The notes beneath the pieces are model-generated. The model did no database searches. It saw nothing but the letters and a program-made list of their open reading frames with translations, and was not told where the DNA came from. DNA of 39,322 nt from positions 1-39,322 of the forward strand of contig JBAVPI010000698.1 in NCBI GenBank assembly GCA_049692915.1. The letters run 5' to 3'. Positions 15,484-39,207 of this stretch are shown piece after piece. A program made the translations under genes and the position numbers. Source of the stretch: Pyrinomonadaceae bacterium (GTDB lineage: Bacteria; Acidobacteriota; Blastocatellia; Pyrinomonadales; Pyrinomonadaceae). Each line of letters begins with the position of its first letter. Within the stretch, counting starts at the first letter, position 1.

Positions 15484-16641
15484 ATGCTATTCAGAACACA
15501 ATCAGCCGCCGTCTACGGCATTGACGCAGACCTCGTTGACATCGAAGTTGACCTCAGCCCTGCGCGCGGCGAATCCGACTCGCCGTCGTCCGTGACCATC
15601 GTCGGCCTTCCCGACCTCGCCGTACGCGAGTCGCGCGAGCGCATCCGCGCCGCGATCAACAACAGCGCCTTCTTCTTTCCCTTTCACAAGACGACCATCA
15701 ACCTCGCGCCCGCAGACGTGCGCAAAGAGGGGGCGAGTTTTGATTTGCCGATTGCCCTCGGCATCCTCGGCGCGAACGGCGACCTCGGCGAAGGGGGCGA
15801 CTTGACGGATGTGCTCTCGGTCGGCGAACTCTCGCTCGACGGGCGCGTGCGTCCCATCCGCGGCGCTTTGCCGGTCGCCATCCGCGCGCGTGACGCGGGC
15901 ATCAAGTCGCTCCTGTTGCCGGAAGAGAACGCCAGCGAAGCGGCGGTCGTGGCGGGCGTGGACGTGTACTCCGTAGCGACATTGCGCGGCGCAGTCGAAC
16001 TCATCGCGGCCCTGCAAGTTAAAGGCGACGACCCCAGACGTCCTTCGCCAATCGCCGTTGATACTTCCGACCTCTTCTCGTCCAGAGCCGATACGGGCGT
16101 CGACTTCCGCGAAGTTTGCGGGCAACTGTCCGCCAAACGTGCGCTCGAAGTGGCAAGCGCCGGTTCACACAACATCCTTCTCATCGGCCCGCCCGGCTCC
16201 GGGAAGACGATGCTCGCCAAGCGTCTGCCGACGATTCTGCCGCCGCTCGAATTCGAGGCCGCGCTGGAGTTGACCAAAATTCATTCGGTCGCAGGATTGA
16301 CGGGACGCACCGGCCTCGTCACAGATCGTCCCTTTCGCTCACCACATCACACCATCAGCGACGCCGGACTGATCGGCGGCGGGGCCGTCCCGCGCCCCGG
16401 CGAAGTCTCGCTCGCGCATCACGGCGTCCTCTTTCTAGACGAGTTACCGGAGTTCGACCGCAGCGTCCTCGAAGTTTTGCGCCAGCCGCTCGAAGACCAA
16501 CGCGTGACGATCAGCCGCGCCGCGATGTCTCTGACGTTTCCCGCATCCTTCATGCTCGCGGCGGCGATGAACCCTTGTGGTTGTGTTGCCCTTTTGCCAC
16601 TTGGGCCGATGCGCTCGGCAAATAATCAAGCTCAATGGTGA
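15484..16641 (+). pseudogene. comM: comM/yifB (Mg-chelatase-like AAA+ competence helicase), 5' about 3/4 only, disrupted by island insertion
   Basis: Lon-like N-domain ([13 protein letters not shown]), Walker [15 protein letters not shown], Walker [12 protein letters not shown], then ...[10 protein letters not shown]. After that come 20 unrelated codons and a stop. The ORF is 385 aa, whereas family members are about 500 aa, and the C-terminal Mg_chelatase_C part is missing from the window. Confidence 0.85.
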
Positions 16642-18076
16642 TGTCCTTCGTACCGACCACGACCTTTTCAACCGTATTCTCAACGATCTGCCGCCGCTCC
16701 TCTGGCTTGAGATTTCCCCAGTTGAGATAAATGCGCTTGCCGGTCTCTACCATTCCATCGGGTGCGAACAGTGCGCGCTCGAGGTGCTCAATCTCGCCTT
16801 GCAGGATCGGCATCTGCTCCCCTATCGCCTCTGCTTGCTCCTCAAGCGGCTTGTACTGCGCGCCAAAACCTTCGCCGCTGATCTGCTCATCCAAGTACAG
16901 CCGCAGAAGCTTGTCCATGTCGCGTTTCATCTGCTTGGCTTTGGCAGTGAGCGATGACAGCAACGCCCGCTTGCCGGAAAGCGCTTCATCGGCCTTTTCC
17001 ATGTAGCGCATAATTTCCTTCGGTGACAAAAAGAAGTTTTGTAGTTCCTTGCAGTACACCTCTTCCAGGTCTATCACCGGTATCTTGTTCCGGCAGGCAA
17101 AGCAGATGTACTTGGGGCTATTGGAGGGAACATAGAGCTTTGTTCCACACTGGCAGTAGGCGAGTCCGGCAAAGAGATGCACGGGCTTTTTTGTGCTAAA
17201 GCGCGGCTGCTGTTTTTGAGCGCGCAGTATCTCGCTGCACTGCTGCCATAGCTCCTCGGAAACGATTGGCTCGACACCGATGAACACCCACTGATCCTCT
17301 GGCTTCATCACCCAGTGTTTTTTCTCACCGAGGCTCCGCGTGTAGTTGGCGCGCCGCTGCCCCTTTGCTATAGGGTCGCGCAGCAGCCGGTCAACCGTGG
17401 TATCGGAAAATCGCCCGCCGCCTCTGGTGCGGTGACCTGCTTCATTGAGGAGCCGAGCCACGGTCTTTTTGCGGCGGTGCTGTAGATAGAGTTCGTACAT
17501 GAGCCGCCTGACCGGTGCTTCGCTCTGGTCAATGATAAGCCTGCGTTCATGCCACCGGTAGCCAAACGGGGCAGCGCCGCCTAAGGGCTTACCGAGGCGT
17601 GCGCGCACGGGGACGGATGCGGCCACGCGTTCGGCGATCTCTTCGCGCTCAAACTGCGTGAGGGCGGCCTGTACGGTGAAGAACATCCGGCCAGCAGGAC
17701 TTGAAGTGTCAATCGCTTCGGCCAGCGAAATTAAATCTGCTCCGAGGTCTTTGAAGATGTCTGCCATGTCGAGCAGCTCTTTGGTGTTACGAGCGAGGCG
17801 GGCAAGCTTTGAGAATATCAGCCCGGAGATGCGTTTGTTTTGAATGTCACTAAGCATCCGCTCCGCCTCTGAGTGATGCATGACTGACTTGCCGGAGACG
17901 GCTTCCAAGTGATACACGGTCACTACCTGCCAGCCTTTGGCCTCGGCGTAGTAGCGGGCGCGCTGCTCGTGGTGCTCGGGGCTATCGCCTTCAGCCTGAT
18001 CGTGCGTTGAGACGCGCACCCAAATGCCGACGCGCTTTGCACCGTCGGTTTGCGGGTGTTGTGCAGTTAATTCCAT
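16550..18076 (-). CDS. Large serine recombinase (integrase)
   Basis: 508 aa. The resolvase catalytic domain is [15 protein letters not shown]...[19 protein letters not shown]...[40 protein letters not shown]. The recombinase domain is [14 protein letters not shown], the zinc ribbon is [24 protein letters not shown], and a coiled-coil tail follows. GGAAGGAG lies upstream of the ATG at 18076. Confidence 0.93.
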
Positions 18077-18079
18077 ACC

Positions 18080-18247
18080 CTACGCTCCTTCCCCTACTAC
18101 AGAAGGCAACGTGCCTTCCCGCTGCATTGCCGCAAGCATGACGCCTGCGATGGCGCTCATTTTCATCTCAGCCTCAAGGTCCGAGGGCACCCTGTACCGC
18201 ACCGAGATTCGGCGCTCCTGACCCTTGGATTTTTGACGTGAATCCAT
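18080..18247 (-). CDS. 55-aa ORF translationally coupled to the integrase (possible directionality or regulatory factor)
   Basis: Too short for the track. My translation is MDSRQKSKGQERRISVRYRVPSDLEAEMKMSAIAGVMLAAMQREGTLPSVVGEGA*. Its TAG lies 3 nt before the integrase ATG, and the integrase SD lies within its last codons. Confidence 0.35.
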   Translation of the reverse strand: MDSRQKSKGQERRISVRYRVPSDLEAEMKMSAIAGVMLAAMQREGTLPSVVGEGA

Positions 18248-18428
18248 AGTGAAATGTTACTGATAAACCCAAACGTGGTGAACGTTCGTACTCCTGTACT
18301 ATAGCACTTTTAGGCTTGCTTGTCTAGGGGTAAATGGGTACAAATAAACGAGTTACAGGCTTATGGGAAGTTGGTGGGAACACTTTTTGATGTGCTTGTA
18401 AGGGAAGTTAAGGAGATCTAAAATTCGC

Positions 18429-18458
18429 TTCACAAAGAACTATAATTCAAGGTATATT
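18429..18458 (+). promoter_or_regulatory. Sigma70-like promoter candidate for the 1065-aa gene
   Basis: TTCACA (18429-34), an 18-nt spacer, then TATATT (18453-58). A second TATAAT lies at 18441-46. This is the AT-rich divergent region between the integrase module and the large gene. Confidence 0.3.
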
Positions 18459-18528
18459 GCGCCTTCGTATAGACGTAATACAGTGCAGCCACCTGTTCTC
18501 ACCATCCAATCCGAAAGGCTGTTTATCT

Positions 18529-21500
18529 ATGTCTTGGCTAAAAAAACTCTTAAACCCAAACTATCAACAGAAATCTCAACCTGAGCCAACTGGGTCAATC
18601 AACCAAGCAGAGCCGGAAGCAAACCCTGACTATGACCTCATGGCGTCAGTACGAGAATTTGAAGAAATGGAGCGATTAAGGCAGCTTGATGATTTGCGCG
18701 CCGCCTATGGCGAAACGCTTATCATGCTTATTGATCGCCACATTCTGCAAAGAATTGATCGACAAAAAATCTTTGAGCGCCTCGCGCCACCTCCACGTAA
18801 CTTTACCGATGACGCTTCATCGCTCAATGTCATAAAAGTACTGCCGCCGCCCGAAGCTACTTTCGCTGATATGGGACGATTCTGGAATAACCTCCGCGTA
18901 TTCCGGCAACCCTTATCCTTCACCCTCATATCAAGACCGGAACGCATGTTTTTTCGTCTCACTGTCCCTCAAGGTTGCGGCGAGGCCGTAGAAGAACAAT
19001 TAGCAATTCATTTCCCCGCTGCAGTTCCGCTTGTGCCGTCTGAAGACGAACGATGGATGCCTGAGTCGCTGTACTGCGTAAATTTCGCGCCCAAATTTAG
19101 CACCCAGTTTCTCGATCATTCATTTGTCAGTCGCGACCCTTACGCGCAACTATTTTCCACGCTCGACTCCCGCGCTTTCAATGAGGCGGTGGCCGTTCAA
19201 ATTAACAGTTGCCCGCTTCCTGACGACGCACTCGACCAGCTCACGCAGGTAATGAAATGGGAAGACCCTGGGATTCCCTATGAGGTATTCGAGCCATTCG
19301 CCGACGGCATGTGGAGCAGCATTATGCAAGGGGGACTTGATGAGCACCGAAGGGGCACACGTGAATTCTATGAGGGCCTCATCAAGGGCATTGACCGCAG
19401 TCACTACGAGGTAGCAGCTCCTCTGAGACAAGCGCTCTGGCAAGAACTCGCCAGGCAGAAAAAACTGAAAGAAGAATGCGCCGAGATGATTAAGCGTATA
19501 GAGCGGAAAGAGCCGCCTTGGGTCGCTTGCGTCAATGTATACTGCGAACAGATCGAAGTGGCGCGGATGCTGCAACAGTCATTCTTACGGCAGTACGAAA
19601 CGACGGAGCAGCGCTGGGAAGAGATAACGGTAACAACGGAACATTATGACCCTTTGGATCATCCCATTTTCAATTGGTCGCTGGTATCCACAGAAGAACT
19701 TACCAGCCTCGCCCATTTCCCAGCCAGAGGTGTCACCAGTCCCCGTTTAGAAGGGGCATCAATGAAGTCGAAGTTGCCGCCGGAAAGCTTTACTACCGGT
19801 GAGGTGCAGATTGGCGTGAGCGAAGCACGCGGCCAAGTTATGCCCGTCTCCATTCCTGATAGCGTGCGTGCCCGCCACCTTTATATCGTGGGAAAGAGCG
19901 GCAGCGGCAAATCAACTCTGATAACTAATATCGCCGTGCAGGACATTGAACGCGGCGAAGGTGTCTGCGTCATTGACCCGCACGGTGATCTTGTCTCTGA
20001 CCTGCTCGACCACATCCCAGAGTATCGCATCAAAGATACGATCTACTTCAACGTCTCTGACCGCGCCCACCCTATCGGCCTCGATATGATGAGCGCCAAG
20101 AACGAAGCCGAGATAGAGATACTGACCGACGATCTGATTACTACCTTTCGCAGGCTCACCGAGACGTGGGGCGAGCGCATGGAAACGATCTTGCGCTACG
20201 CCTTCAACACGCTCCTCCGCACCCCGGGCGCGACCTTTTTAGACCTTCAAAAGCTCCTCACTAATGAGGGTTGGCGCTCAACTGTTGTACGCAAGATCAA
20301 CTTCGCCCCGCTGACCGACTTCTGGTTTAACCAGTTCGCCAACATGCCGAAGGATGCGACACAGCCGCTACTCTCGCGCATGACCAAGATTGTGCTCTCT
20401 CCGACCCTAAACGCCATCTTCGGCCAGTCACAGAACACGCTTAACTTCAATGACGTGATCCGCAATCGAAAAATACTGCTCATTAATCTCGGAGGCGATA
20501 GCCGGGACCGAAACAACGAGCAGCTTTCTGTTAGCGACGAGATGAAAAAGCTCATCGGCTCTGTCGTCGTTTCGCAGCTTCAACTTGCTGCGATGAGGCA
20601 GGCCAGCATCCCGGAAGAGAAGCGCGTGCCGTGCCGATTCTTCGTTGACGAGTTCCAGAATTTTGTCTCAGGAGCCTTCCCCAAGATTTTAAGTGAAGCG
20701 AGAAAGTACAAGTTGTCGCTGACGGTCGCCCACCAGTACATCTCGCAGCTTGATGAGGCCACGCGCAACGCCGTCTTCGGTAATGTTGGAACGATGATCG
20801 TTATGCCGCTCGGGCAGAAAGACGCGTCCTACTTAGGAGCCGAGTTAGGCGCGTACAAGCCGGAAGACGTGGCGAACCTTTCCCCAGAGCGCCACGAGGC
20901 GCTGTGCCGACCAACGACCATGGCCGCCGATACCTTTTTATTTAGGACGCTCGCCCCAGCCCCCATCACACAGAGTTTCGCCCAGGCAGTCATTGAGCAT
21001 ACAAGGGCTGAGTACAGTACGACGGACGCCGGTGAGGATGTCTTAGAGTTGCCCGCTCCTACCCTGCAGGAATCGGCAATCGCTAAACGACCGATGCGAG
21101 AGACGGAAAAGGTTTTCGCCTCGACTGTAGAGAAGATTTTGCATTTCATCTCACTCGCCGGTTACCTCACGACCGCTCAGATTATCGAGTTGTGCTATTC
21201 GCACTTGGCCGAGACTTCAAAGCGTCCGGCGGCGAGCCGCGACTTGAAGAAACTCACGGATGCGAAAAAACTAAAATCCATTAATTGGGGCGACGGCAAG
21301 GTTTTCTACGCCGGCGGCCAGTGCAATCCGACTGCACACAATGTCGCCATCCGCGATATTCTCATCAGGATTTTGCAGTCAGGATATGAGGCCGCGGAAG
21401 TCAATTTCTCGTCGAGCATCGGCGCGCTATCCCCTGATCTGCTGGTAACGTTTTTGTGTGAGGACGGATCACTCCTTCCCACCTATTGGGAATATGACAC

Positions 21501-21726
21501 CGGCACAGAAGGGATCACCGAAATAATTAAAAAAATCGCCCGCTATGTGCCCCATTCCGCCACCTCTAGGGTAAGCTTTATCTGCACGACGAAAGAGCGT
21601 GTGCAGTCGATTATGAAGGCGACGCAGGCAGACTTTATCGACTACGGCGTTTTAGTTGATTTCGCCAGCCTCAGTACACCGGCGTTTATTTCTCGCACCC
21701 GTACTAATAAATATTCATTCTTTTAA
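18529..21726 (+). CDS. Fusion protein: unknown about 470-aa N-domain + TraD/VirD4-type (FtsK/HerA superfamily) P-loop ATPase + C-terminal Replication-relaxation-family (wHTH + PD-(D/E)xK-like) domain
   Basis: Walker A HLYIVGKSGSGKSTL, then VCVIDPHGDL, Walker B RFFVDEFQNF, then ARKYKLSLTVAHQYISQLD and GNVGTMIV. The C-terminus reads ILHFISLAGYLTTAQIIELCY...SPDLLVTF...YWEYDTGTEGITEIIKKIARY. No TM helix is visible. I prefer the ATG at 18529 (MSWLKKLL, with GAAAGG upstream) over the track TTG at 18457. Confidence 0.85.
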   Translation: MSWLKKLLNPNYQQKSQPEPTGSINQAEPEANPDYDLMASVREFEEMERLRQLDDLRAAYGETLIMLIDRHILQRIDRQKIFERLAPPPRNFTDDASSLNVIKVLPPPEATFADMGRFWNNLRVFRQPLSFTLISRPERMFFRLTVPQGCGEAVEEQLAIHFPAAVPLVPSEDERWMPESLYCVNFAPKFSTQFLDHSFVSRDPYAQLFSTLDSRAFNEAVAVQINSCPLPDDALDQLTQVMKWEDPGIPYEVFEPFADGMWSSIMQGGLDEHRRGTREFYEGLIKGIDRSHYEVAAPLRQALWQELARQKKLKEECAEMIKRIERKEPPWVACVNVYCEQIEVARMLQQSFLRQYETTEQRWEEITVTTEHYDPLDHPIFNWSLVSTEELTSLAHFPARGVTSPRLEGASMKSKLPPESFTTGEVQIGVSEARGQVMPVSIPDSVRARHLYIVGKSGSGKSTLITNIAVQDIERGEGVCVIDPHGDLVSDLLDHIPEYRIKDTIYFNVSDRAHPIGLDMMSAKNEAEIEILTDDLITTFRRLTETWGERMETILRYAFNTLLRTPGATFLDLQKLLTNEGWRSTVVRKINFAPLTDFWFNQFANMPKDATQPLLSRMTKIVLSPTLNAIFGQSQNTLNFNDVIRNRKILLINLGGDSRDRNNEQLSVSDEMKKLIGSVVVSQLQLAAMRQASIPEEKRVPCRFFVDEFQNFVSGAFPKILSEARKYKLSLTVAHQYISQLDEATRNAVFGNVGTMIVMPLGQKDASYLGAELGAYKPEDVANLSPERHEALCRPTTMAADTFLFRTLAPAPITQSFAQAVIEHTRAEYSTTDAGEDVLELPAPTLQESAIAKRPMRETEKVFASTVEKILHFISLAGYLTTAQIIELCYSHLAETSKRPAASRDLKKLTDAKKLKSINWGDGKVFYAGGQCNPTAHNVAIRDILIRILQSGYEAAEVNFSSSIGALSPDLLVTFLCEDGSLLPTYWEYDTGTEGITEIIKKIARYVPHSATSRVSFICTTKERVQSIMKATQADFIDYGVLVDFASLSTPAFISRTRTNKYSFF

Positions 21727-21985
21727 GGGCTGCACGTCGCGCAATTATGATCTGTAAACCATTGTTCTTACTATGGTTATTTGATACGGATGTGTTAATT
21801 AGCCGTTAATTGGATTAACAACCTGTTGGGAAGAGGGTTGTGCGCTAATTGCTCTGGCGCTGTCCGGATGCCGCAGGATTTGAGCCAAGGAACTGATATT
21901 ATTTCAGTGCCTCGTTTGCTCGAATCAGAGGAACACGCTTTAACGAGTATAGGCAACACATCCGCCCTTACAAATCCGCCCTCCA

Positions 21986-22975
21986 ATGCAGCTGCGCCTC
22001 CACAAATATAAACGTGATTCGAAAGGGTTGCGCCCGTACACACATGTCAGCCGCATCACCGACCGCGCCCTTGAGATCATTCGGCTCATCGAGCGTTACC
22101 GGTTCTTACCAGCGTCACTGATTGTCAAGTTAGCCGACGGCAATCCGCGTACACACAGCGTCATTTACAAGCGCTCTATCATAAAGAATTGATTAACCGC
22201 TTCGCCTTCCCCCGCGTCGGCAATCCCGGCGAGTTCAATTACTACCTCGACCGCACCCAAGCCCTTGAATTACTCGTCGAGGCCGGATGCGACCGAGACG
22301 CGCTCGATTAGGATTTAGTCAAACGGAACTTTGCTAAGGACTACAGCGCTATCAATCTGAGAACGAACACTGACGATCTATAAGGACGGCTCATGCACCT
22401 TTAGCACGAGCTAATGATTAGCCGCTTTCACGCGATGCTAGAACTCGCCTGCCGCGTCTCTAGAAGCCGCGTCGAGCTGCAAGAATTCAAGCAAGGCCCG
22501 TAGCTATGGAATAGGGTTGAAGTTCCGGTTGTGCGTTTCAGAAATGAAAGGTGGGTTGAGTCTGATGATACTGAGACGCTTCTCCACAGGCCGGATGCAT
22601 TCTTTACGCTGCGCTTTCCGTCAGGAGCAGGGCGAACGGGAGTTGGTACACTTTTTCTACGAGGCCGACCGTAAGCATACCTCAACTCCTAAGCATAACC
22701 GAAAACTCCGGGCCCACTTTGACTACATTGTGAAGCAGCAACTACGTGAGGCTGTGTATGGAGTGAAATATCCACGCCATGCTCATTGCGATGACTGATC
22801 GGTACCGGCAGACAAGCTGCGAGGTGCGGCCAAGGACGTTGCCGTTTCAGGCGGCAAACCCTCTTCCTATTTTGATTCACTATCAAGCAGCTATTCTGCT
22901 AGGCGCAAGTAGTATGAGAGGAAGGACGAATGCGGAACGAATCTCTCTACTTAACAAAGCCCGACATAATTAGGT
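21986..22975 (+). pseudogene. Decayed stand-alone Replication-relaxation-family gene (several frameshifts and in-frame stops)
   Basis: Family-like segments are scattered over three frames. They include RITDRALEIIRLIERYRFLPASLIVKL, then RHLQALYHKELINRFAFPRVGNPGEFNYYLD in another frame, HL*HELMISRFHAMLEL, and RPDAFFTLRF.../ELVHFFYEADRKHTSTPKHNRKLRAHFDY. Reading through requires passing TAG, TAA and TGA stops. Confidence 0.7.
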
Positions 22976-23032: not shown

Positions 23033-23225
23033 AACGTGAGTTCGACGTAAGGAATGGGCTAAGTCGTTGAGAACAAACATCTCGTTCTAAAACAGCTAAC
23101 TTCAATGTGCTCAATCATGCTACTGACGGACACTTTCAGCCTGTTTCCGACGATTTAGCGCAGATTTCAAACAGTCTCAGAAATTAGTTGTTGATTCTGT
23201 TCAAGAATTACGTCGAACTCACGTT
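23033..23225. repeat. 193-bp element bounded by perfect 18-bp inverted repeats and flanked by a 6-bp direct repeat (MITE-like; alternatively an invertible segment)
   Basis: AACGTGAGTTCGACGTAA (23033-23050) and its exact reverse complement TTACGTCGAACTCACGTT (23208-23225). GCGTTT lies immediately outside both ends (23027-32 and 23226-31). No ORF lies inside. Confidence 0.5.
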
Positions 23226-25109: not shown

Positions 25110-25658
25110 CCCGTCGCCGAGAATGTGTTAGCGCGTCTGTTCCGCGCCACGCGCCTGGATGAGGTCTGGACTACGGACATCACCTACCTCTGGACTTCGG
25201 AAGGATGGTTCTACTTGGTCATCTTTCTTGATTTGTACGCGCGGTTCGTCGTCGGGTGGGCGGTCTCGGAGAGTCTTGAGGTCGGATTCGTCGAGCGGGC
25301 GTTTCTCCAAGGGCAACGACGGCGCGCAGGGGGCGTCTCGCCGCTCATCCATAGTGATCGCGGTTGCCAGTACGTCAGCACAGCCTTCAGAGAAAAGCGC
25401 GTGGCGTGGGGCTGCGCGCAGAGTATGAGCTGCCAGGGCAACTGTTGGGACAATGCGGTGACGGAAAGCTTCTTTGGCATCTTGAAGAGCGAGATGATTC
25501 ATCACGAACACTTTGCGACCAGACAGGAAGCGACGGACAAACTGTTCGATGGCATTGATGTCTTTTACAACCGGATGAGGATTCATTAGGCCACAGAATA
25601 CTTCGCACCGGAGGAGTATGAAGCGCGCTATCAAGCGCACTTGAAACAAGTAGCGTGA
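25110..25658 (+). pseudogene. IS3-family transposase (OrfB, DDE/rve core) C-terminal fragment with a premature stop
   Basis: VWTTDITYLWTSEGWFYLVIFLDLYARFVVGWAV...LIHSDRGCQYVS...GNCWDNAVTESFFGILKSE...FYNRMRIH*ATEYFAPEEYE. The D, D, E residues are present, OrfA and the N-terminal part are missing, and there is an internal TAG at 25587-89. The left boundary is approximate. Confidence 0.8.
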
Positions 25659-27746: not shown

Positions 27747-28778
27747 CTAGCCAGCCACGGCGTAGGGCTGAAGATACTTGCCGAGTCGCGCAGTCAGTTC
27801 ATACTGGCGTACCGGGACAAGCTGCTTGAAGGTTGTCGTAAACGCATTGGACAGCGACCAGATAGTTCGCCTCTTGAACTCCTCATGCTGCGGCTCAAAG
27901 TATCCCGTGTGTACCAGCTTCATCAGGTTCCTTGGAAACTTCTGTTCCAGAAACGCTTTGTAGATGATGAGGCGGGCTTGGTCATCTGAGAGGTCGCGTT
28001 CCTGCATAAACTGGATGCTTGCTTTCAGCGGCTCAAAGTTTCGCTGAATCCGGTCTACACCGATGGAGAGCGAATCCACCAGATCGAAGTGCTTGGAATG
28101 CTTGGCGAGCAGCGGCTTGAAGTCGCCAGAGAGTGCCATATTGTCGCAGACAAACACGCGGTAGCCTGCCACCATCCCGAGCCGCATTGACCGGTCATTG
28201 GCATTTCTGAGGCCAATAGCGAACCGAACGCCGAAACAATCAGCGTTTAATTCAAGGAGCGCAAAGAGCCGCATTCCGTCGGGCGAGACGGCATAGTCAT
28301 CGCGCACAATCGAGATATGGCGGAAGGCTAGTGCTTCTTCAAGCTGATCAATGAGACGGGCGTGTGGGATCGGCTGGAAGGTAGCTGTCGCCTCCGCCAC
28401 GGGCAGATTTGCCAGCTCGGGCCTTGTGATTTTGCTTGCGCCAGCATGTACCATCAGGCGGGCATCGGGAAGTGATGATGCAGCCTCCGGTTCGGCGGCA
28501 GTCTGATCTATGCATGCCGGCAGATCATCGTCACGCTCGGTGTGAATTGCTTCTTCCAACTGACTATCAAGGTCATCTTCCATTGGAGAGGGAAGCAAAT
28601 CATTAGCAGAGTCGCTCGCCCCTTCGATCTGCGATACCTGATCTAATAGCTGCTCTGGCGGCACGGGAGGCATCTCTTCCTGTGCCTCATTCGGCGGTGG
28701 TACGATAGTAAGCTTTCGTGGCTTACTGCGAGATGTCGTGGATTGTTTCGGTGCTATCTGTTTCAGTTTCCGGCTCAT
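27747..28778 (-). CDS. DUF932-family protein (typical of conjugative/mobilisable elements and phages)
   Basis: FAIGLRNANDRSMRLGMVAGYRVFVCDNMALSGDF matches the NSxDGS...G..R.VC.N core of DUF932. The N-terminal 110 aa are acidic and disordered. The ATG at 28778 has AGGAGGA upstream (the track ORF extends to 28814). Confidence 0.85.
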   Translation of the reverse strand: MSRKLKQIAPKQSTTSRSKPRKLTIVPPPNEAQEEMPPVPPEQLLDQVSQIEGASDSANDLLPSPMEDDLDSQLEEAIHTERDDDLPACIDQTAAEPEAASSLPDARLMVHAGASKITRPELANLPVAEATATFQPIPHARLIDQLEEALAFRHISIVRDDYAVSPDGMRLFALLELNADCFGVRFAIGLRNANDRSMRLGMVAGYRVFVCDNMALSGDFKPLLAKHSKHFDLVDSLSIGVDRIQRNFEPLKASIQFMQERDLSDDQARLIIYKAFLEQKFPRNLMKLVHTGYFEPQHEEFKRRTIWSLSNAFTTTFKQLVPVRQYELTARLGKYLQPYAVAG

Positions 28779-28950
28779 CGGTTTCCTCCTCTGTAAGTTC
28801 TGAAAGCATTTCATCGAGGCACTGCTCGTGAAAGGCTTTTCGTCGTTCGAGTCTGCTGTGAAGCGGCTTCCCGCACCACTTGCACTCTTTGTGGTTAGTG
28901 CTCATCAATGCGCGCTTGACTATCAGCCACCGCGCCCAGCGGGGAGTCAT
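28723..28950 (-). CDS. 75-aa zinc-knuckle protein with acidic tail (hypothetical)
   Basis: AAGGAGG lies 7 nt upstream of the ATG at 28950. MTPRWARWLIVKRALMSTNHKECKWCGKPLHSRLERRKAFHEQCLDEML + EEETDEPETETDSTE. It overlaps the 3' end of the upstream gene by 56 nt. Confidence 0.5.
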   Translation of the reverse strand: MTPRWARWLIVKRALMSTNHKECKWCGKPLHSRLERRKAFHEQCLDEMLSELTEEETDEPETETDSTETIHDISQ

Positions 28951-30736: not shown

Positions 30737-31684
30737 TTATGCCGCTTGAGCCAGCCGCATTTCTGCGAGGCGGACATAGCGCGGATTCAGCTCGATGCCG
30801 ATGTAGTGTCGCTTGAGCCTACGCGCTGCAAGTGCGGTCGTGCCTGACCCCATAAACGGATCAAGCACCACGCCGCCTTCCGGGCAGCCCGCTTCGATGG
30901 GAGTCTCTATGAGCGTCTGGGGGAAGACGGCGTAGTGCTTGCCCGGATAGGGCTTGGTTGGGATGCGCCACACGCACCGCTTATTTCTGCCGCGGGAAAG
31001 TATTCGCTGCCTGCTTGCTTCCGCACTCTGTGGGTTGATGGCAGAGATGTAAGGGTCGCCGTAGATTCGTTTCCGCTTGCTCTGAGGGTTGATAAGAGGC
31101 CGGAGCAGACGCGGTTTGTCGACAAGCAGCTCAAATTGCTGCTTGAAGTAGTAACGACGCTCCTTGACGAAGAACAGCACCTTCTCAAAGTCAACGGTGA
31201 ATCGGTCATGTGCGCTCGACGGCATACAGTTGGGCTTGTACCAGATGATTTCATTGCGGAGCATCCATCCCCTCTGGCACATCTCGATTGAAAAGCGCGC
31301 AGGAATGAGAGCCAGCGACTTTTTCTTAAGGCCAATGCCCGAAGCCATCTGCCGAAACGGTGATCGGGATGCGTCCGTAAACTGCTCAGATGAACGGCTC
31401 CGCACCGGCGAGTCGCCGGCATACGTGTCTCCAAGGTTCACCCAGCAGGTGCCCGAAGGTTTCAGCACCCGCCCTACCTCATCGAACACCGCGCACAGTT
31501 TTTCAAGGTACAAATCAAGCGACGGTTCAAGTCCGATCTGGCCGCGCACCCGGTAATCGCGAAGACGCCAGTACGGAGGGCTCGTAATCACGCAGTCAAT
31601 GCTGTCTGGCGGAAAGTGCCGGAGGGTAGCGCGTGCGTCGCCGCACAGTATGCGGTCAAGATAGGGCTTAAGGGATGAGGCCAT
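30737..31684 (-). CDS. Beta-class DNA methyltransferase, SPPY motif IV (N4-cytosine or N6-adenine)
   Basis: IDCVITSPPYWRLRDY (motif IV) precedes VLDPFMGSGTTALAARRLKRHYIGIELNPRY (motif I). This is the beta-class order. Confidence 0.9.
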   Translation of the reverse strand: MASSLKPYLDRILCGDARATLRHFPPDSIDCVITSPPYWRLRDYRVRGQIGLEPSLDLYLEKLCAVFDEVGRVLKPSGTCWVNLGDTYAGDSPVRSRSSEQFTDASRSPFRQMASGIGLKKKSLALIPARFSIEMCQRGWMLRNEIIWYKPNCMPSSAHDRFTVDFEKVLFFVKERRYYFKQQFELLVDKPRLLRPLINPQSKRKRIYGDPYISAINPQSAEASRQRILSRGRNKRCVWRIPTKPYPGKHYAVFPQTLIETPIEAGCPEGGVVLDPFMGSGTTALAARRLKRHYIGIELNPRYVRLAEMRLAQAA

Positions 31685-31721
31685 GTAAGGGTAATGGATA
31701 CAAAGTGAAGGCTGTAGATCG

Positions 31722-32396
31722 TTAGGCGATTTGGCGCAGTGTCACGGTCTGAGCGTTGAGCCGCGCTTCTGCAATCTTGCAGTAGGTGGGGTCGAGTTCA
31801 ATGCCGATATATCCCCTACCCAATTCCCGTGCTGCGACGGCAGATGAGCCTGAGCCGAGGAATGGATCAAGGACAATATCGCCTACCTCGCTGCTGTGTT
31901 CGATCAATGGCTTAAGAAGTTCAACAGGCTTTTCGTGCGGATGCTGCACGTACCGCGTCCGCACACAGCGGATGAGATTGGGAAACCCAGGTCTGCGGTA
32001 GATAGGACGGCCTTTCTCAAGGACTACGATGCACTCGTAGCGTCTGCGGAAACCATGTCCCCTCCCCTGCAGCACCTTATCCCAGATAATGATGTCCCTG
32101 AGCTTGTATTTCGTATAGGTTTGGAAAAAGGTGCTGACAAAACCGAGATGCCGCGTGCCGCAGAACACATACGCCGCGCTATTGGCTTTCAGCACGCGGT
32201 ATGCTTCCGATAGTGCAGAGAGACCGACGAGCGGATGTTCATTGCCGAGGATGGTGCGGTTATGTACCCCGTAGCCGATGTTATCCCCATACGGCGGGTC
32301 AGTGACGATCAGGTCAACGCTTTTATCCGGCAGGCTTTTGAGGACAATGAGGGCGTCGCCGCAGATGAGGCGGCCTGAGAAGGGAAGGGATATCAT
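31722..32396 (-). CDS. Beta-class DNA methyltransferase, DPPY motif IV (probably N6-adenine)
   Basis: VDLIVTDPPYGDNIGYG (motif IV) precedes VLDPFLGSGSSAVAARELGRGYIGIELDPTY (motif I). Compact at 224 aa. Confidence 0.9.
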   Translation of the reverse strand: MISLPFSGRLICGDALIVLKSLPDKSVDLIVTDPPYGDNIGYGVHNRTILGNEHPLVGLSALSEAYRVLKANSAAYVFCGTRHLGFVSTFFQTYTKYKLRDIIIWDKVLQGRGHGFRRRYECIVVLEKGRPIYRRPGFPNLIRCVRTRYVQHPHEKPVELLKPLIEHSSEVGDIVLDPFLGSGSSAVAARELGRGYIGIELDPTYCKIAEARLNAQTVTLRQIA

Positions 32397-38595: not shown

Positions 38596-39207
38596 TCAGG
38601 TAAACAAGGAAAGGTTATGAGGTTTAGGCGGATAGAATAAACCTATGATAATCCAATTTTTGGGGTGGCGGTGAACTGTACCAACATAGAAGTGCGTGTC
38701 GTTCCGCTCAATCATTTCCTTCTCGAACCTCTGGCGAAACTTAGCCTCCCATTCATCGCCATAATCTCTTGACCATCTTCGCCATGCTTGCGCCATCTCC
38801 CAGTCCGTACAATGAAGCGCGTGGCCTCTACATGCGTCGTCGTCACAGCTAAAGAGGTAATGAAAATCGTAAGGAATTTTCTCTAGTTCTTCTTGCGGTT
38901 GTCGATCGAATAGTTTGCCGTGGCGGAGCATGTCAAGTTGCCCCTGTGTCCATGTAGGGCTTGCAGCAGTAATGCGTAATCGTTTTATTACATTTGGGCG
39001 AAAGAATCCTAATGTCGGCTGATTGTGCGCGTCTCGCTCTCTTTGTAACTGGCATAGAGAGCGAGCGCGTAGCGGTTCAACAATATCTTTTCTGGCTTGC
39101 CATTCGTTATCAGTAGGTAGTGTTTCTGAGATGATTTTAATTGACTGAATACTTGGGGTGTAGCTTTCTGGTCGGGCGTCTGCCGCTGTTTTAGTGCGCG
39201 GATTCAT
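38596..39207 (-). CDS. Hypothetical 203-aa protein (Cys/His cluster CDDDACRGHALHC)
   Basis: A clean ORF convergent with the KAS III gene. The C-terminus THFYVGTVHRHPKNWIIIGLFYPPK looks like a conserved family, but I cannot name it. Confidence 0.65.
   Translation of the reverse strand: MNPRTKTAADARPESYTPSIQSIKIISETLPTDNEWQARKDIVEPLRARSLCQLQRERDAHNQPTLGFFRPNVIKRLRITAASPTWTQGQLDMLRHGKLFDRQPQEELEKIPYDFHYLFSCDDDACRGHALHCTDWEMAQAWRRWSRDYGDEWEAKFRQRFEKEMIERNDTHFYVGTVHRHPKNWIIIGLFYPPKPHNLSLFT

What the first reader, a model, noticed from the sequence alone, without database searches (positions are those of the whole stretch)
18529..21726. Single 1065-aa polypeptide fusing a soluble TraD/VirD4-type translocase to a Replication-relaxation (PD-(D/E)xK-like) domain behind an unknown 470-aa N-domain
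These motifs are seen directly: Walker A GKSGSGKST, Walker B FFVDEFQNF, and the KYKLSLTVAHQYISQLD and GNVGTMIV blocks of coupling-protein-type ATPases. The last about 220 aa then carry a winged-helix-like start (ILHFISLAGYLTTAQIIELCY) and a D ... ExD...K core (SPDLLVTF ... WEYDTGTEGITEIIKKIARY), as in the Replic_Relax family. That family is normally a separate small gene next to such ATPases, and to my recollection it is classed with PD-(D/E)xK nucleases. The N-terminal 470 aa are hydrophilic with no TM anchor, whereas classical T4CPs are membrane-anchored, and I cannot name any motif in them. No MOB relaxase, VirB4, T4SS or phage structural gene is visible in the 22.7 kb of island. The protein could be a minimal one-protein DNA processing and export machine for the island. 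It could equally be an ATPase-nuclease exclusion or defence protein. I know of no characterised system with this architecture.
Basis: partly seen in the sequence, partly recalled or inferred. Interest (0 to 1): 0.82.

Follow-up and report, generated by a model that had tools for sequence, protein, structure and literature searches.

The report
Coupling-protein ATPase fused to MOB_C relaxase
A mobile island in a soil Acidobacterium encodes one 1065-residue protein that joins a conjugation-type DNA pump to a restriction-enzyme-like DNA-nicking (MOB_C / Replic_Relax) domain; these two parts are normally neighbouring genes, so this is a real but incremental variant of a known DNA-mobilization module.

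Summary
ORF 18529-21726 (+) is intact, has no transmembrane segment, and carries every quoted motif. The fusion is inherited, not an assembly error: 58 representatives in 1.84 billion proteins, 25 of them at least 900 aa, always with the domain at the C-terminus, from independent metagenomes; all named members are Acidobacteriota.

The C-terminal 200 aa is a complete Replic_Relax module, a winged helix plus a PD-(D/E)xK core (hhalign 99.9 % to 49 stand-alone PF13814 proteins). The invariant residues are H937, R942, D970, E988, D990, E994, K1002 and Y1006.

MOB_C relaxases characteristically sit next to their own coupling-protein gene (CloDF13 MobB/MobC, pAD1-type plasmids, streptococcal IMEs, Bacillus phages), in the same order as in this fusion.

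The "unknown" N-domain has a predicted fold like the VirB4 N-terminal domain; this rests on structure prediction only.

The island sits in comM, was placed there by a serine recombinase, and carries no mating-pore genes. I therefore read it as an integrative mobilizable element. Most relatives also keep a separate Replic_Relax gene, which is a pseudogene here (21983-22971).

Verdict: a new variant (single-chain fusion) of a known kind; moderate interest.

The parts
18529..21726 (+). Fusion gene (1065 aa): VirB4-NTD-like domain + TrwB/VirD4-type ATPase + Replic_Relax (MOB_C-type) domain
   Evidence: ORF; Pfam/NCBIfam hits; about 50 homologous clusters with the same architecture; conserved start MSWLKK
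18529..18810 (+). Variable N-terminal leader (residues 1-94). Only the first ~10 aa are conserved. Most homologues carry ~170-200 extra residues here.
   Evidence: Alignment occupancy and identity along the query; N-terminal sequence comparison
18811..19818 (+). N-domain (residues ~95-430) with a predicted VirB4 N-terminal-domain-like fold. Contains a lineage-specific insertion at about residues 251-325. Shared with ~850-aa Patescibacteria T4CP-like proteins that carry PF26449.
   Evidence: AF2 model pLDDT 86.4, pTM 0.79. Foldseek top 11 hits are all R388 TrwK/VirB4, best E 1.3e-5, probability 1.00, TMq 0.37. No sequence-level support.
19819..21018 (+). T4CP-type (TrwB/VirD4) P-loop ATPase core. 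Walker A at nt 19891-19917 (catalytic Lys K461); Walker B at nt 20638-20664.
   Evidence: TrwB_AAD_bind, TraG-D_C and DUF87 above Pfam cutoffs; TrwB 1e9r E 1.8e-7; BLASTP against R388 TrwB 7e-11; motif conservation in the family and in Patescibacteria relatives
21124..21309 (+). Winged-helix DNA-binding part of the Replic_Relax module (residues ~866-927)
   Evidence: AF2 model pLDDT 92.7; Foldseek wHTH hits Hop2, MecI and ArsR at probability ~1.0; hhalign to stand-alone Replic_Relax covers it
21334..21651 (+). PD-(D/E)xK-like catalytic core of the Replic_Relax / MOB_C module (residues ~936-1041). Invariant residues: H937, R942, P969-D970, E988, D990, E994, K1002, Y1006.
   Evidence: Invariant columns in 42 and in 27 sequences; Foldseek NucS/EndoMS 2vld E 4.5e-4, 5gke, BstEII; Bacillus phage Replic_Relax models E 3.4e-10, TMq 0.60; hhalign 99.87 %
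15484..16641 (+). Truncated comM (Mg-chelatase-type, 385 aa): the integration target. The ORF reads into the island.
   Evidence: Pfam Mg_chelatase and ChlI; GC falls from ~0.62 to ~0.50 here; same junction in L003, L004 and L010
16550..18076 (-). Large serine recombinase (508 aa): the island integrase
   Evidence: Pfam Resolvase + Recombinase; 76-80 % identical orthologues at the same place in L003, L004 and L010
18080..18247 (-). 55-aa ORF directly upstream of the recombinase gene. A role as directionality/excision factor is my inference.
   Evidence: Read from the sequence; a 55-aa gene is called at the same place in L003 and L004; no family hit
18240..18528 (.). Divergent control region. 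Conserved block A (~18240-18345) includes the palindrome GAACGTTC. The conserved leader/RBS block lies at ~18470-18528. There are promoter-like sites on both strands.
   Evidence: Alignment of four comM-lineage loci; promoter-like sites + 18429-18458 and - 18326-18298
21787..21982 (.). Weak oriT candidate between the fusion stop and the Replic_Relax pseudogene: a 10-bp long-range inverted repeat (21787-21796 / 21955-21964) plus a tandem 13-nt direct repeat (21956-21982)
   Evidence: the repeat finder; DNA fold z = -2.0 only. The layout resembles the IR + direct-repeat region between the T4CP gene and the traX-like gene on pTEF1. Not established.
21983..22971 (+). Pseudogene of a stand-alone Replic_Relax paralogue (at least 3 frameshifts, at least 7 in-frame stops)
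   Evidence: Three-frame reading; tblastn with the intact L022 orthologue, 57-76 % identity in four pieces; intact ~350-367-aa orthologues near the fusion in at least 17 loci, full-length PF13814 matches
27747..28814 (-). DUF932 protein, a recurrent companion of the module
   Evidence: Pfam DUF932; orthologues in L003, L004, L005, L009, L010, L011 and L022
29360..30604 (-). Second soluble VirD4/TrwB-type ATPase (398-414 aa). It has neither the N-domain nor a relaxase domain.
   Evidence: Pfam and NCBIfam; 33-43 % identical to the fusion's ATPase; member of a very large family, more than 8000 hits at E <= 1e-20
30737..32396 (-). Two adjacent N6/N4 DNA methyltransferase genes (30737-31684 and 31722-32396)
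   Evidence: Pfam N6_N4_Mtase; syntenic in L003, L010 and L011

Best explanation
The gene encodes the DNA-processing and coupling protein of an integrative mobilizable element (IME). A large serine recombinase inserted the element into comM of an Acidobacteriota (Pyrinomonadales-like) chromosome.

The protein is a single-chain version of the known pair 'own coupling protein + MOB_C relaxase' (CloDF13 MobB/MobC; pAD1 T4CP/TraX).

Proposed mechanism:
1. After excision, the C-terminal winged helix recognises an origin of transfer on the circular element (inferred).
2. The PD-(D/E)xK core (D970, E988, D990, K1002) nicks one strand without forming a covalent adduct, as reported for TraX (inferred).
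3. Because the nuclease is tethered to the TrwB-type ATPase ring, the freed strand is handed directly to the pump (inferred).
4. The pump feeds the strand into a mating channel supplied by a co-resident conjugative element (inferred).
5. The VirB4-N-terminal-domain-like N-domain replaces the missing transmembrane anchor as the part that docks on that channel (inferred).

Shown: domain identities, conservation of the catalytic residues, the fused state, and the integrative, mating-pore-less context.

Inferred: nicking, the oriT, hexamer formation, docking, and dependence on a helper.
For: Domains:
- T4CP ATPase.
- Complete Replic_Relax module: hhalign 99.87 %, E 1.2e-31, against 49 proteins that all hit PF13814.
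- That Replic_Relax profile links to the Replic_Relax protein of the MOB_C-typed pAD1-type plasmid pTEF1: probability 94.9 %, E 4.2e-8.
- Predicted wHTH + restriction-endonuclease-like fold.
- Catalytic residues invariant in 42 family members.

Literature:
- PF13814 = MOB_C (PMC5357655).
- MOB_C relaxases are PD-(D/E)xK enzymes with an N-terminal wHTH and no covalent intermediate (PMC12857230).
- The few mobilizable plasmids and IMEs that carry their own VirD4 also carry MOB_C (PMC5704250; PMC12479173).
- CloDF13 MobB is both the T4CP and an accessory factor in relaxation (PMC7431656).
- A TM-less VirD4-like ATPase next to a MobC-like relaxase occurs in Bacillus phages, and ~75 % of that ATPase family lack TM helices (PMC3357382).

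Gene order and context:
- On pTEF1 the order is T4CP, then oriT-like repeats, then Replic_Relax, which matches the domain order here.
- Disrupted comM + serine recombinase + 55-aa ORF at the island edge, conserved in L003, L004 and L010.
- No MPF genes in 22.7 kb of window island.
- None in at least 32 kb of the syntenic L003/L042 island.
- None among the recurrent or largest neighbours scanned in the other lineage.
- The second lineage has a tyrosine recombinase, an Xis-like HTH, a CHC2 zinc finger, DUF932 and methylases.
- One member, L029, assembles as a ~13.2-kb circle.
- N-domain: all top Foldseek hits are VirB4/TrwK.
Against: - No transmembrane anchor. TMD-deleted MobB, TrwB and PcfC are non-functional (PMC7431656).
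- No T4SS is known for these hosts, and none is seen near any family member.
- About 70 % of related loci keep a separate, full-length Replic_Relax gene. The fused domain may therefore be an accessory or second nuclease rather than the relaxase.
- In the window that separate gene is dead and an IS fragment is present, so the module may be decaying here.
- No oriT is demonstrated. The covarying structured element next to these genes in relatives is absent from the window.
- The CONJscan/MOBscan MOB_C profile could not be run.
- The Pfam hit on the whole protein is below threshold.
- The VirB4-like N-domain rests on predicted structure only, TMq 0.37, with no sequence signal.
Confidence: 0.55

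Rival explanations
1. Self-contained DNA export or transfer that does not use a T4SS. The soluble ATPase ring(s), tethered to a nuclease, would cut and push island DNA out of the donor, with uptake by the recipient's own machinery. This would resemble Thermus 'transjugation' (TdtA) or the single-translocase transfer of actinomycete elements.
For: - No mating-pore gene is seen near any family member in long contigs or complete genomes.
- Both T4CP-like ATPases in the island are soluble.
- Related elements carry up to three TrwB-like ATPases plus Replic_Relax and still no MPF genes (L043).
- Thermus TdtA is a precedent for a soluble HerA/FtsK-type donor ATPase on an ICE (PMC5365140 abstract).
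Against: - No membrane-spanning component is identified that could let DNA cross the envelope.
- The closest characterised relatives of both domains work with T4SSs.
- Lack of MPF genes is the defining property of ordinary IMEs.
- The ATPase is much closer to TrwB than to HerA.
Confidence: 0.12
2. Defence or exclusion system. An ATPase-nuclease, analogous to HerA-nuclease pairs, would cut incoming plasmid or phage DNA, while the neighbouring methyltransferases protect self DNA.
For: - PD-(D/E)xK nuclease fold.
- Weak PADLOC HerA hits, and 'mad8' at 61 bits for both ATPases.
- Methylases lie next to the second ATPase.
- Defence-like cargo sits in these islands: SIR2_2 in L004 and PDC-M19B in the window.
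Against: - The PADLOC hits are generic P-loop matches, and there are none for the Replic_Relax proteins.
- All nearest relatives of the nuclease module are Replic_Relax/MOB_C.
- The gene is a constant core feature next to the recombinase, whereas the cargo varies.
- Orphan methylases are typical of IMEs with PF13814 relaxases (PMC12479173).
Confidence: 0.1
3. Replication or maintenance function of the excised or plasmid form. The Replic_Relax domain would initiate rolling-circle-type replication or resolve multimers, and the ATPase would segregate or translocate the copy, without intercellular transfer.
For: - The family name ('replication-relaxation') and early annotations refer to plasmid replication (PMC3424549 Table 1).
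- In the second lineage the genes sit beside a conserved ~500-aa unknown protein (C0) and a highly structured non-coding element that could be an origin.
- L029 appears to be a ~13.2-kb circle.
Against: - C0 has no detectable similarity to any replication initiator.
- The comM lineage lacks C0 and that element yet keeps the fusion.
- The only biochemically studied members, TraX and MobC, are transfer relaxases.
- Relaxases commonly also drive replication of excised elements, so this overlaps with the main explanation rather than excluding it.
Confidence: 0.12
4. Artefact: a mis-assembly or a sequencing frameshift has joined two adjacent genes.
For: None found. The two parts are separate adjacent genes in other systems.
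Against: - There is a continuous ORF in at least 18 independent loci from different samples and sources.
- 25 representatives of at least 900 aa exist in the exhaustive search.
- This Replic_Relax subfamily is never found unfused; the short hits are fragments.
- The linker is conserved.
Confidence: 0.01

Closest known systems
CloDF13 MobB (T4CP) + MobC (MOB_C relaxase) mobilization module
   Same: It is a non-conjugative element that brings both its own VirD4-type coupling protein and a PD-(D/E)xK-type (MOB_C) relaxase. MobB also assists relaxation, so the two proteins work as one unit (PMC7431656; PMC12857230). Phage Replic_Relax proteins were linked to MobC by HHpred at 4.4e-22 (PMC3357382).
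   Different: - It has two separate proteins, not one chain.
- MobB has a transmembrane domain that is required for function.
- It is a plasmid, not an integrated island.
- It has no VirB4-like N-domain.
- I could not compare sequences directly, because the held CloDF13 record is frameshifted.
pAD1-type plasmids: T4CP + TraX relaxase (pTEF1 copy examined)
   Same: - The gene order T4CP, then oriT-type repeats, then Replic_Relax equals the domain order here.
- The relaxase has a wHTH + PD-(D/E)xK layout and hits PF13814.
- hhalign gives 94.9 % to the Replic_Relax profile that matches the fused domain at 99.9 %.
- MOB-suite types the plasmid as MOBC.
   Different: - The genes are separate.
- The plasmid is conjugative, with its own Gram-positive mating apparatus.
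- The host is a Firmicute.
- Direct HMM comparison of the fused domain with the pTEF1 protein shows nothing. The link is only through the family profile.
Streptococcal IMEs with a PF13814/MOB_C relaxase and their own VirD4
   Same: They are integrated elements with a recombinase, a MOB_C relaxase, their own coupling protein, no mating pore, and sometimes an orphan N6-adenine methylase (PMC5357655, PMC5704250, PMC12479173).
   Different: - The genes are separate.
- The hosts are Firmicutes.
- The coupling proteins are of the canonical VirD4 family.
- Transfer of these IMEs is also still only inferred.
Bacillus phage 0305phi8-36 / SPO1 'DNA translocation operon' (orf200 MobC-like relaxase + orf201 TM-less VirD4-like ATPase)
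   Same: A soluble VirD4-like ATPase is paired with a Replic_Relax-type protein outside any T4SS locus (PMC3357382). The best structural matches of the fused C-domain in the viral library are these phage proteins (phage G gp146, E 3.4e-10, TMq 0.60).
   Different: - The genes are separate.
- The context is a phage genome.
- The function is unknown there too; the operon is dispensable in the laboratory.
Patescibacteria VirD4-like proteins (~850 aa; N-terminal TM + PF26449 + TrwB-type ATPase)
   Same: They are the closest relatives of the N-domain + ATPase part: 28-39 % identity over residues ~125-830. Most are encoded away from virB4, and MOB_C is the commonest relaxase in that group, often beside the t4cp gene (PMC12102498).
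   Different: - They have one N-terminal TM helix.
- They have no Replic_Relax domain.
Relaxase fusions to helicase or primase domains (TraI/TrwC MOB_F, some MOB_Q)
   Same: The principle is the same: a relaxase is covalently joined to a motor or DNA-processing enzyme (PMC12857230).
   Different: - Those are HUH relaxases at the N-terminus, fused to SF1 helicases or primases.
- Here a non-HUH relaxase sits at the C-terminus of the coupling ATPase itself.

Membership tests
Replic_Relax (PF13814) / MOB_C relaxases | Match to the family profile above the curated threshold | tested here: inconclusive
   - Whole protein: 19.6 bits against a 25.3 cutoff.
- Isolated C-terminus: 25.4 bits.
- Homologues P0023 and P0018: 31.5 and 30.8 bits, always on profile positions ~95-178.
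- Profile-profile comparison to 49 bona fide members: 99.87 %, E 1.2e-31, full length.
Replic_Relax (PF13814) / MOB_C relaxases | N-terminal winged-helix DNA-binding domain | tested here: met
   AF2 model; Foldseek wHTH hits at probability ~1.0; aligned to the wHTH of stand-alone members
Replic_Relax (PF13814) / MOB_C relaxases | PD-(D/E)xK-type core with conserved acidic and Lys residues (D ... ExD/E ... K) | tested here: met
   D970, E988, D990 and K1002 are invariant in 42 sequences and in register with the family consensus PD...ExD.GTE...K..RY. The best PDB fold hits are NucS/EndoMS and BstEII.
Replic_Relax (PF13814) / MOB_C relaxases | Hit to the CONJscan/MOBscan MOB_C profile | not testable with these tools
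   The profiles are not available. The indirect link is that PF13814 proteins are scored MOB_C by CONJscan (PMC5357655), and MOB-suite types pTEF1 as MOBC.
Replic_Relax (PF13814) / MOB_C relaxases | Site-specific nicking at an oriT without a covalent protein-DNA adduct | not testable with these tools
   This needs biochemistry. Only a weak IR + direct-repeat candidate is seen in the window, at 21787-21982.
Replic_Relax (PF13814) / MOB_C relaxases | Encoded next to a coupling-protein gene | tested here: met
   It is fused to one. The order is the same as T4CP then Replic_Relax on pTEF1.
Type IV coupling proteins (VirD4/TrwB/TraD) | TrwB-type nucleotide-binding domain with Walker A/B | tested here: met
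   TrwB_AAD_bind 45.2 bits, TraG-D_C 33.9 bits and T4SS-DNA_transf 20.9 bits, all above cutoffs; TrwB E 1.8e-7; BLASTP 7e-11
Type IV coupling proteins (VirD4/TrwB/TraD) | N-terminal transmembrane anchor | tested here: not met
   There is no hydrophobic segment in the protein or in about 50 family members. TM-less relatives are common in some T4CP-like families (PMC3357382).
Type IV coupling proteins (VirD4/TrwB/TraD) | Curated equivalog-level match (TraD, VirD4 subfamilies) | tested here: not met
   The best NCBIfam hits are 48 bits against a 366 cutoff (SXT_TraD) and 42.9 bits against 250 (CD1115 VirD4-like). It is therefore a distant branch of the superfamily.
Type IV coupling proteins (VirD4/TrwB/TraD) | Works with a T4SS (genomic association with MPF genes) | tested here: not met
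   No MPF gene appears in the window island, in L003/L042 (at least 32 kb), or in L004, L005, L043 and L044. The rest of the host genomes could not be examined.
VirB4 ATPases | VirB4-type N-terminal domain | tested here: inconclusive
   Foldseek on the predicted model: the top 11 hits are all TrwK/VirB4, best E 1.3e-5, TMq 0.37. Sequence-profile tests are negative.
VirB4 ATPases | VirB4-type ATPase domain (AAA_10 / VirB4_CagE profiles) | tested here: not met
   AAA_10 scores 14.6 bits against a 27.5 cutoff. VirB4-type and TraC NCBIfam hits are about 18 bits against cutoffs above 560.
Integrative mobilizable element (IME) | Own integration module at an element boundary, inserted in a host gene | tested here: met
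   Truncated comM is followed by a serine recombinase and a GC drop. The same junction occurs in three other metagenome contigs.
Integrative mobilizable element (IME) | Relaxase present, mating-pore genes absent | tested here: met
   The relaxase-type domain is present. No MPF genes were found. The far end of the island lies outside the window.
Integrative mobilizable element (IME) | Excision and helper-dependent transfer | not testable with these tools
   This needs experiments, or read-level evidence of attP/attB junctions.
HerA-nuclease type defence systems (PADLOC models) | Specific match of both components to a defence-system model | tested here: not met
   Only generic ATPase matches were found (mad8 61 bits; HerA at most 29 bits), and none for the nuclease module or the stand-alone Replic_Relax.

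The most novel reading that the evidence does not exclude
These Acidobacteriota elements carry one or two Replic_Relax nucleases, two or three soluble TrwB-like ATPases (one with a VirB4-like docking domain), DUF932, methylases and a covarying ~200-nt structured DNA/RNA element, yet never a mating-pore gene. On the most novel reading they are a DNA-transfer system of their own kind, which exports DNA without a classical T4SS. The single-chain nuclease-pump would be its core: it cuts and threads DNA itself. That would also explain how non-covalent MOB_C relaxases hand DNA to a translocase.
Probability: 0.12. Interest if true: 0.85.

Novelty: new variant of a known kind. Interest (0 to 1): 0.45.

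Why it matters
MOB_C relaxases are the least understood relaxase class. They are restriction-enzyme-like, and no covalent DNA adduct has been detected. The 2025 T4SS review explicitly calls it an open question how their DNA reaches the coupling protein and the channel (PMC12857230).

A natural covalent fusion of a MOB_C-type domain to the C-terminus of a coupling-type ATPase is a 'Rosetta-stone' argument that the two act as one physical machine. It implies that the relaxase hands the nicked strand directly to the pump and need not travel with it.

The fusion is also a convenient single-chain, soluble target for structural work (ring + nuclease + DNA).

It extends the relaxase + own-T4CP mobilization module to Acidobacteriota, a major soil phylum whose mobile elements are almost unstudied.

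The predicted VirB4-like N-domain, shared with thousands of unexplained Patescibacteria 'T4CPs', hints at an alternative to the transmembrane anchor.

It does not, by itself, reveal a new kind of system.

Tried and rejected
1. CloDF13 (NC_002119) as a MobB/MobC reference. The held record is an old, frameshifted sequence with garbled mob ORFs, so it was unusable.
2. tblastn of the C-domain against 72,556 plasmids found no match at E <= 1. The subfamily is not on sequenced plasmids.
3. hmmsearch of the C-domain profile against the single pTEF1 TraX-like sequence and the reconstructed pseudogene found nothing.
4. hhalign of the C-domain against the 15 local stand-alone paralogues was not significant; the alignments were shallow. 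The link was obtained only through a deeper set from the exhaustive search.
5. Sequence search of the C-domain profile against the PDB gave only a weak winged-helix hit.
6. N-domain tests found nothing by Pfam, by PDB sequence profile, or by hhalign against TrwK. Only the predicted fold points to VirB4.
7. The idea that the window gene is 5'-truncated was rejected. The MSWLKK start is conserved, and P0002 and P0018 share the short N-terminus.
8. The idea that the short C-domain hits are unfused genes was rejected. They are fragments.
9. The defence reading found nothing specific in PADLOC.
10. My impression that the C0 family (~500 aa) is a replication initiator found no support in Pfam, NCBIfam or the PDB.
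11. An oriT upstream of the fusion gene was not found. The conserved blocks there look like a divergent promoter and a leader.
12. The structured element was not found in Rfam.
13. GTDB representative genomes contain only one locus, so no taxonomic survey was possible.
14. Papers on a T4CP-relaxase fusion: none were found. Francia et al. 2013 (TraX) is not held.

Full report
OBSERVATION. The ORF is real. It runs from 18457 (TTG) or 18529 (ATG) to 21726 on the + strand, and is 1065 aa from the ATG. Homologues begin with the same MSWLKK/MSWFKK, so 18529 is the start. All are conserved across the family. There is no hydrophobic segment: the maximum 19-residue hydropathy window is 1.34 against a threshold of 1.6. 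The same holds for about 50 homologues.

THE ATPase. Pfam places residues 439-779 in the coupling-protein families: TrwB_AAD_bind 45.2 bits, TraG-D_C 33.9, T4SS-DNA_transf 20.9 and DUF87 30.3, all above their cutoffs. NCBIfam gives only far-sub-threshold TraD/VirD4 hits, so this is a distant branch of the superfamily. The nearest solved protein is TrwB of R388 (E 1.8e-7), with HerA at 0.0067. Direct BLASTP against TrwB gives 7e-11.

THE C-TERMINAL DOMAIN. On the whole protein the Replic_Relax hit is below threshold (19.6 against 25.3 bits). On the isolated C-terminus it just reaches it (25.4 bits). In homologues it passes (31.5 and 30.8 bits). In every case it covers only profile positions ~95-178.

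I built a 27-sequence alignment of the domain (A1). AlphaFold2 on it gives pLDDT 92.7 and pTM 0.88: a winged helix followed by an alpha-beta-beta-beta-alpha-beta core. Foldseek against the PDB finds PD-(D/E)xK nucleases for the core (NucS/EndoMS 2vld, E 4.5e-4, probability 0.99; 5gke; BstEII) and many winged helices. In the viral library the best full-length matches are ~274-aa proteins of large Bacillus phages (phage G gp146, E 3.4e-10, TMq 0.60).

An exhaustive HMMER search of 1.84 billion representatives with A1 gave 58 proteins at E <= 1e-30, then a gap, then about 180 stand-alone proteins of 200-330 aa. I aligned 49 of the stand-alone proteins. All 49 hit PF13814, best E 5.7e-44. Profile-profile comparison with the fused domain gives 99.87 %, E 1.2e-31, over 192 columns. 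It spans both the wHTH and the core, with the motifs H..., PD, ExD, GTE, K..RY and R in register. Invariant residues in 42 fused-family members are H937, R942, P969, D970, F975, E988, D990, E994, K1002 and Y1006. The C-terminus is therefore a complete, apparently catalytically intact Replic_Relax module.

WHAT REPLIC_RELAX IS. Steczkiewicz et al. 2012 assigned PF13814 to the PD-(D/E)xK superfamily (PMC3424549). Coluzzi et al. 2017 equate Rel_PF13814 with the CONJscan MOB_C relaxase family (PMC5357655). The 2025 T4SS review describes MOB_C relaxases (pAD1 TraX, CloDF13 MobC) as restriction-endonuclease-like. According to that review they have an N-terminal winged helix, a binding site of five direct repeats 70-120 bp from nic, and no detectable covalent intermediate (PMC12857230).

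On the pAD1-type plasmid pTEF1, which MOB-suite types as MOBC, the 261-aa 'replication-relaxation family protein' hits PF13814 at 28.5 bits. It lies just downstream of, and co-oriented with, the T4CP gene. The Replic_Relax profile A3 matches it at 94.9 %, E 4.2e-8.

The pairing is also known. The few mobilizable plasmids and IMEs that carry their own VirD4 carry a MOB_C relaxase (PMC5704250; PMC12479173). CloDF13 MobB is both the coupling protein and an accessory factor in relaxation (PMC7431656). Pathria et al. 2012 described a MobC-like relaxase next to a TM-less VirD4-like ATPase in Bacillus phages, and noted that ~75 % of that ATPase family lack TM helices (PMC3357382). I found no paper describing the two as one polypeptide.

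THE N-DOMAIN. Residues ~100-250 and ~326-440 are conserved in the family and shared with ~850-aa Patescibacteria VirD4-like proteins. Those proteins carry one N-terminal TM helix and Pfam PF26449, which is not in the library I could scan. Residues 251-325 are an insertion of the window's sub-lineage. Most homologues have ~170-200 extra residues near the N-terminus.

AlphaFold2 on residues 95-445 gives pLDDT 86.4 and pTM 0.79. All 11 top PDB matches are TrwK/VirB4 of the R388 T4SS (best E 1.3e-5, probability 1.00, TMq 0.37), followed by noise. Sequence-level tests are negative. I therefore rate 'VirB4 N-terminal-domain-like' as moderately supported. In VirB4 that domain contacts the inner-membrane complex (established knowledge). 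This suggests, but does not show, a docking role that substitutes for the missing TM anchor.

THE FUSION IS INHERITED. The C-domain aligns end to end in about 40 homologues of 1000-1200 aa. One GTDB species representative, a Pyrinomonadales MAG, carries it, and so do 35 metagenome loci. Wherever upstream sequence exists, the C-domain follows the ATPase in the same ORF. The exceptions are L017, where an insertion interrupts it, and the degraded L025. The short hits in the exhaustive search start mid-ATPase or in the linker, so they are fragments. This Replic_Relax subfamily is never seen unfused, and 25 of the 58 representatives are at least 900 aa. Named members are all Acidobacteriota.

CONTEXT. 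GC falls from ~0.62 to ~0.50 at about 17.5-18 kb. The host side ends with a comM-type gene truncated at 385 aa. Next comes a 508-aa large serine recombinase on the minus strand, preceded by a 55-aa ORF. The same junction and order occur in L003, L004 and L010: comM fragment, recombinase, 55-aa ORF, fusion, variable cargo, DUF932, a ~400-aa second VirD4-like ATPase, then methylase(s).

No mating-pore, phage-structural or replication gene is detectable in the window's 22.7 kb of island. None is detectable in at least 32 kb of the syntenic island either.

A second lineage lacks the serine recombinase. It carries a tyrosine recombinase, an HTH_17/excisionase-like protein, a CHC2 zinc-finger protein, DUF932, methylases and a conserved ~500-aa protein of unknown function, C0. 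One such contig, L029, repeats all features at a 13,247-bp offset, so it is a ~13.2-kb circle. Both lineages thus look like integrative (or excised) elements with a DNA-processing module and no channel, which is the definition of an IME.

TWO COMPLICATIONS. First, about 70 % of related loci also carry a separate, intact, full-length Replic_Relax gene of ~350-367 aa within a few kb. In the window it is a pseudogene at 21983-22971, with at least 3 frameshifts and at least 7 stops. It is absent or fragmentary in the other comM-lineage islands. So the fused domain may cooperate with, rather than replace, a free paralogue. In the comM lineage the fused copy is the only one left, and it keeps all catalytic residues.

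Second, the island has another soluble VirD4-like ATPase (29360-30604, -). It belongs to a very large, highly conserved family: more than 8000 hits at E <= 1e-20, 65-80 % identity. Members occur in complete genomes next to further TrwB-like ATPases and unfused Replic_Relax genes, again without mating-pore genes.

CIS ELEMENTS. Upstream of the fusion gene, four comM-lineage loci share a ~110-bp block with the palindrome GAACGTTC, and a ~60-bp leader. Divergent promoter-like sites lie in the same region. I read this as a control region, not an oriT.

On pTEF1 the T4CP-traX intergenic region has a nested perfect inverted repeat (18- and 25-nt arms, span 142 bp) followed by about six 12-nt direct repeats. 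This fits the literature description of the MOB_C oriT. My recollection of Francia & Clewell 2002 is unverified.

In the second lineage, a ~200-250-nt element lies just downstream of C0 and upstream of the Replic_Relax/fusion genes in at least 13 loci. It is closed by a double long-range stem beginning CGCAGGCT. It folds far better than shuffles, z -5 to -13. RNAalifold finds 42 pairs, 30 with compensatory changes, and the closing stem is essentially never broken. Short direct repeats often follow it. It is not in Rfam. It could be an oriT, a single-strand origin, a replication origin or an RNA; I cannot tell which.

The window lacks this element. It has only a weak 10-bp long-range repeat plus a tandem 13-mer between the fusion stop and the pseudogene (21787-21982; z -2.0). 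It also has a strong but unique 18-bp-armed inverted repeat at 23033-23225 (z -5.7), with no copy elsewhere.

MECHANISM AND RIVALS. The best-supported reading (confidence about 0.55) is a single-chain coupling-protein/MOB_C-relaxase of an IME. The winged helix binds the oriT, the PD-(D/E)xK core nicks, the tethered TrwB-type ring takes the strand, and a helper element supplies the channel. The N-domain may provide docking.

Against this reading:
- There is no TM anchor, and TMD deletions inactivate MobB, TrwB and PcfC.
- No T4SS is in sight.
- A free paralogue exists in most relatives.
- No oriT has been proven.

The rivals are:
- T4SS-independent export (about 0.12). It is favoured only by the consistent absence of pore genes and the multiplicity of soluble ATPases.
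- A defence or exclusion nuclease (about 0.10). PADLOC gives only generic hits.
- A replication or maintenance role (about 0.12). This overlaps with the relaxase function.
- An assembly artefact (about 0.01). This is refuted by recurrence.

VERDICT. This is a new variant, a gene fusion with an added VirB4-like N-domain, of a known kind: the 'own T4CP + MOB_C relaxase' mobilization module.

Interest is moderate (0.45). It is still useful as a Rosetta-stone clue to how non-covalent MOB_C relaxases are coupled to the translocase, and as a first look at mobilization modules in Acidobacteriota.

Noticed in passing
window 21983-22971 (+): A heavily degraded stand-alone Replic_Relax gene (at least 3 frameshifts, at least 7 stops) lies immediately downstream of the fusion gene. 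Intact ~350-367-aa orthologues accompany the fusion in about 70 % of related loci, so these elements normally carry two Replic_Relax paralogues.
   Followed up: yes
L021:9985-10210(-), L018:5800-6020(-), L029:3005-3225(+), L005:4845-5095(+), L009:5370-5550(+), L038:4070-4260(+) and at least 7 more loci (alignment A6): A conserved ~200-250-nt highly structured non-coding element, with a double closing stem starting CGCAGGCT and 3-4 inner hairpins. It always lies just downstream of the unknown C0 gene and upstream of the Replic_Relax/fusion genes. RNAalifold finds 42 pairs, 30 with compensatory changes; fold z is -5 to -13; it is not in Rfam. It could be an oriT, a single-strand origin, a replication origin or an ncRNA. 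It is absent from the window.
   Followed up: partly
window 23033-23050 / 23208-23225: A perfect 18-nt inverted repeat enclosing 157 nt (span 193, DNA fold z -5.7) lies ~60 nt after the pseudogene. It has no copy elsewhere in the window or in related loci. It may be a cis-acting site or a MITE-like remnant; it remains unexplained.
   Followed up: partly
window 29360-30604 (-): A second soluble VirD4/TrwB-like ATPase of ~400 aa. It belongs to a very large, strongly conserved family (more than 8000 hits at E <= 1e-20, 65-80 % identity). Family members occur on complete chromosomes with DUF2958, integrases, further TrwB-like ATPases and unfused Replic_Relax genes, but never with mating-pore genes (L043, L044). 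Its role is unknown.
   Followed up: partly
window 38596-39207 (-): A 203-aa protein that strongly matches the PADLOC candidate defence gene PDC-M19B (E 1.5e-37). It is probably island cargo. L004 carries a SIR2_2 gene at a comparable position.
   Followed up: no
window 15484-16641 (+) and 16550-18076 (-): comM is the integration target of a large serine recombinase. The truncated comM ORF reads ~90 nt into the island and overlaps the 3' end of the recombinase gene. The same junction appears in three other metagenome contigs. The far end of the island lies beyond the window.
   Followed up: partly
L005:3232-4713(+) and 10 orthologues (alignment A4): C0 is a conserved ~500-aa protein adjacent to the Replic_Relax/fusion genes in the non-comM lineage. 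It has no hit in Pfam, NCBIfam or PDB sequences. Its N-terminus reminded me of plasmid replication initiators, but nothing supports that.
   Followed up: partly
L029 (17,442-bp contig MWWH01000170.1): All features recur at a +13,247-bp offset (the C0 gene, the structured element, the CHC2 zinc-finger gene). The contig is therefore a circular ~13.2-kb element carrying the fusion, a free Replic_Relax gene, a tyrosine recombinase and an Xis-like gene. It is either a plasmid or an excised IME.
   Followed up: partly
window 25125-25589 (+): A fragment of an IS integrase (rve, rve_2, rve_3 core, 154 aa) without an intact transposase ORF. Together with the pseudogene, it suggests this copy of the island is decaying.
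   Followed up: no
window 30737-31684 (-) and 31722-32396 (-): Two adjacent N6_N4 DNA methyltransferase genes next to the second ATPase, with no cognate restriction gene seen. Orphan methylases are also reported on streptococcal IMEs with PF13814 relaxases.
   Followed up: no
window 25742-27253 (-): A 503-aa ORF with no hit in Pfam, NCBIfam or PADLOC, and no homologue in any related locus.
   Followed up: partly
L017:3531-4917: In one relative the fused Replic_Relax domain is split by a ~1.4-kb insertion that encodes a 437-aa ORF, probably an insertion sequence.
   Followed up: no
L002 (pTEF1) 19498-19735: The T4CP-traX intergenic region of this pAD1-type plasmid shows a nested perfect inverted repeat (18- and 25-nt arms, span 142 bp) followed by about six 12-nt direct repeats. 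It is a useful template for recognising MOB_C-type oriTs.
   Followed up: yes
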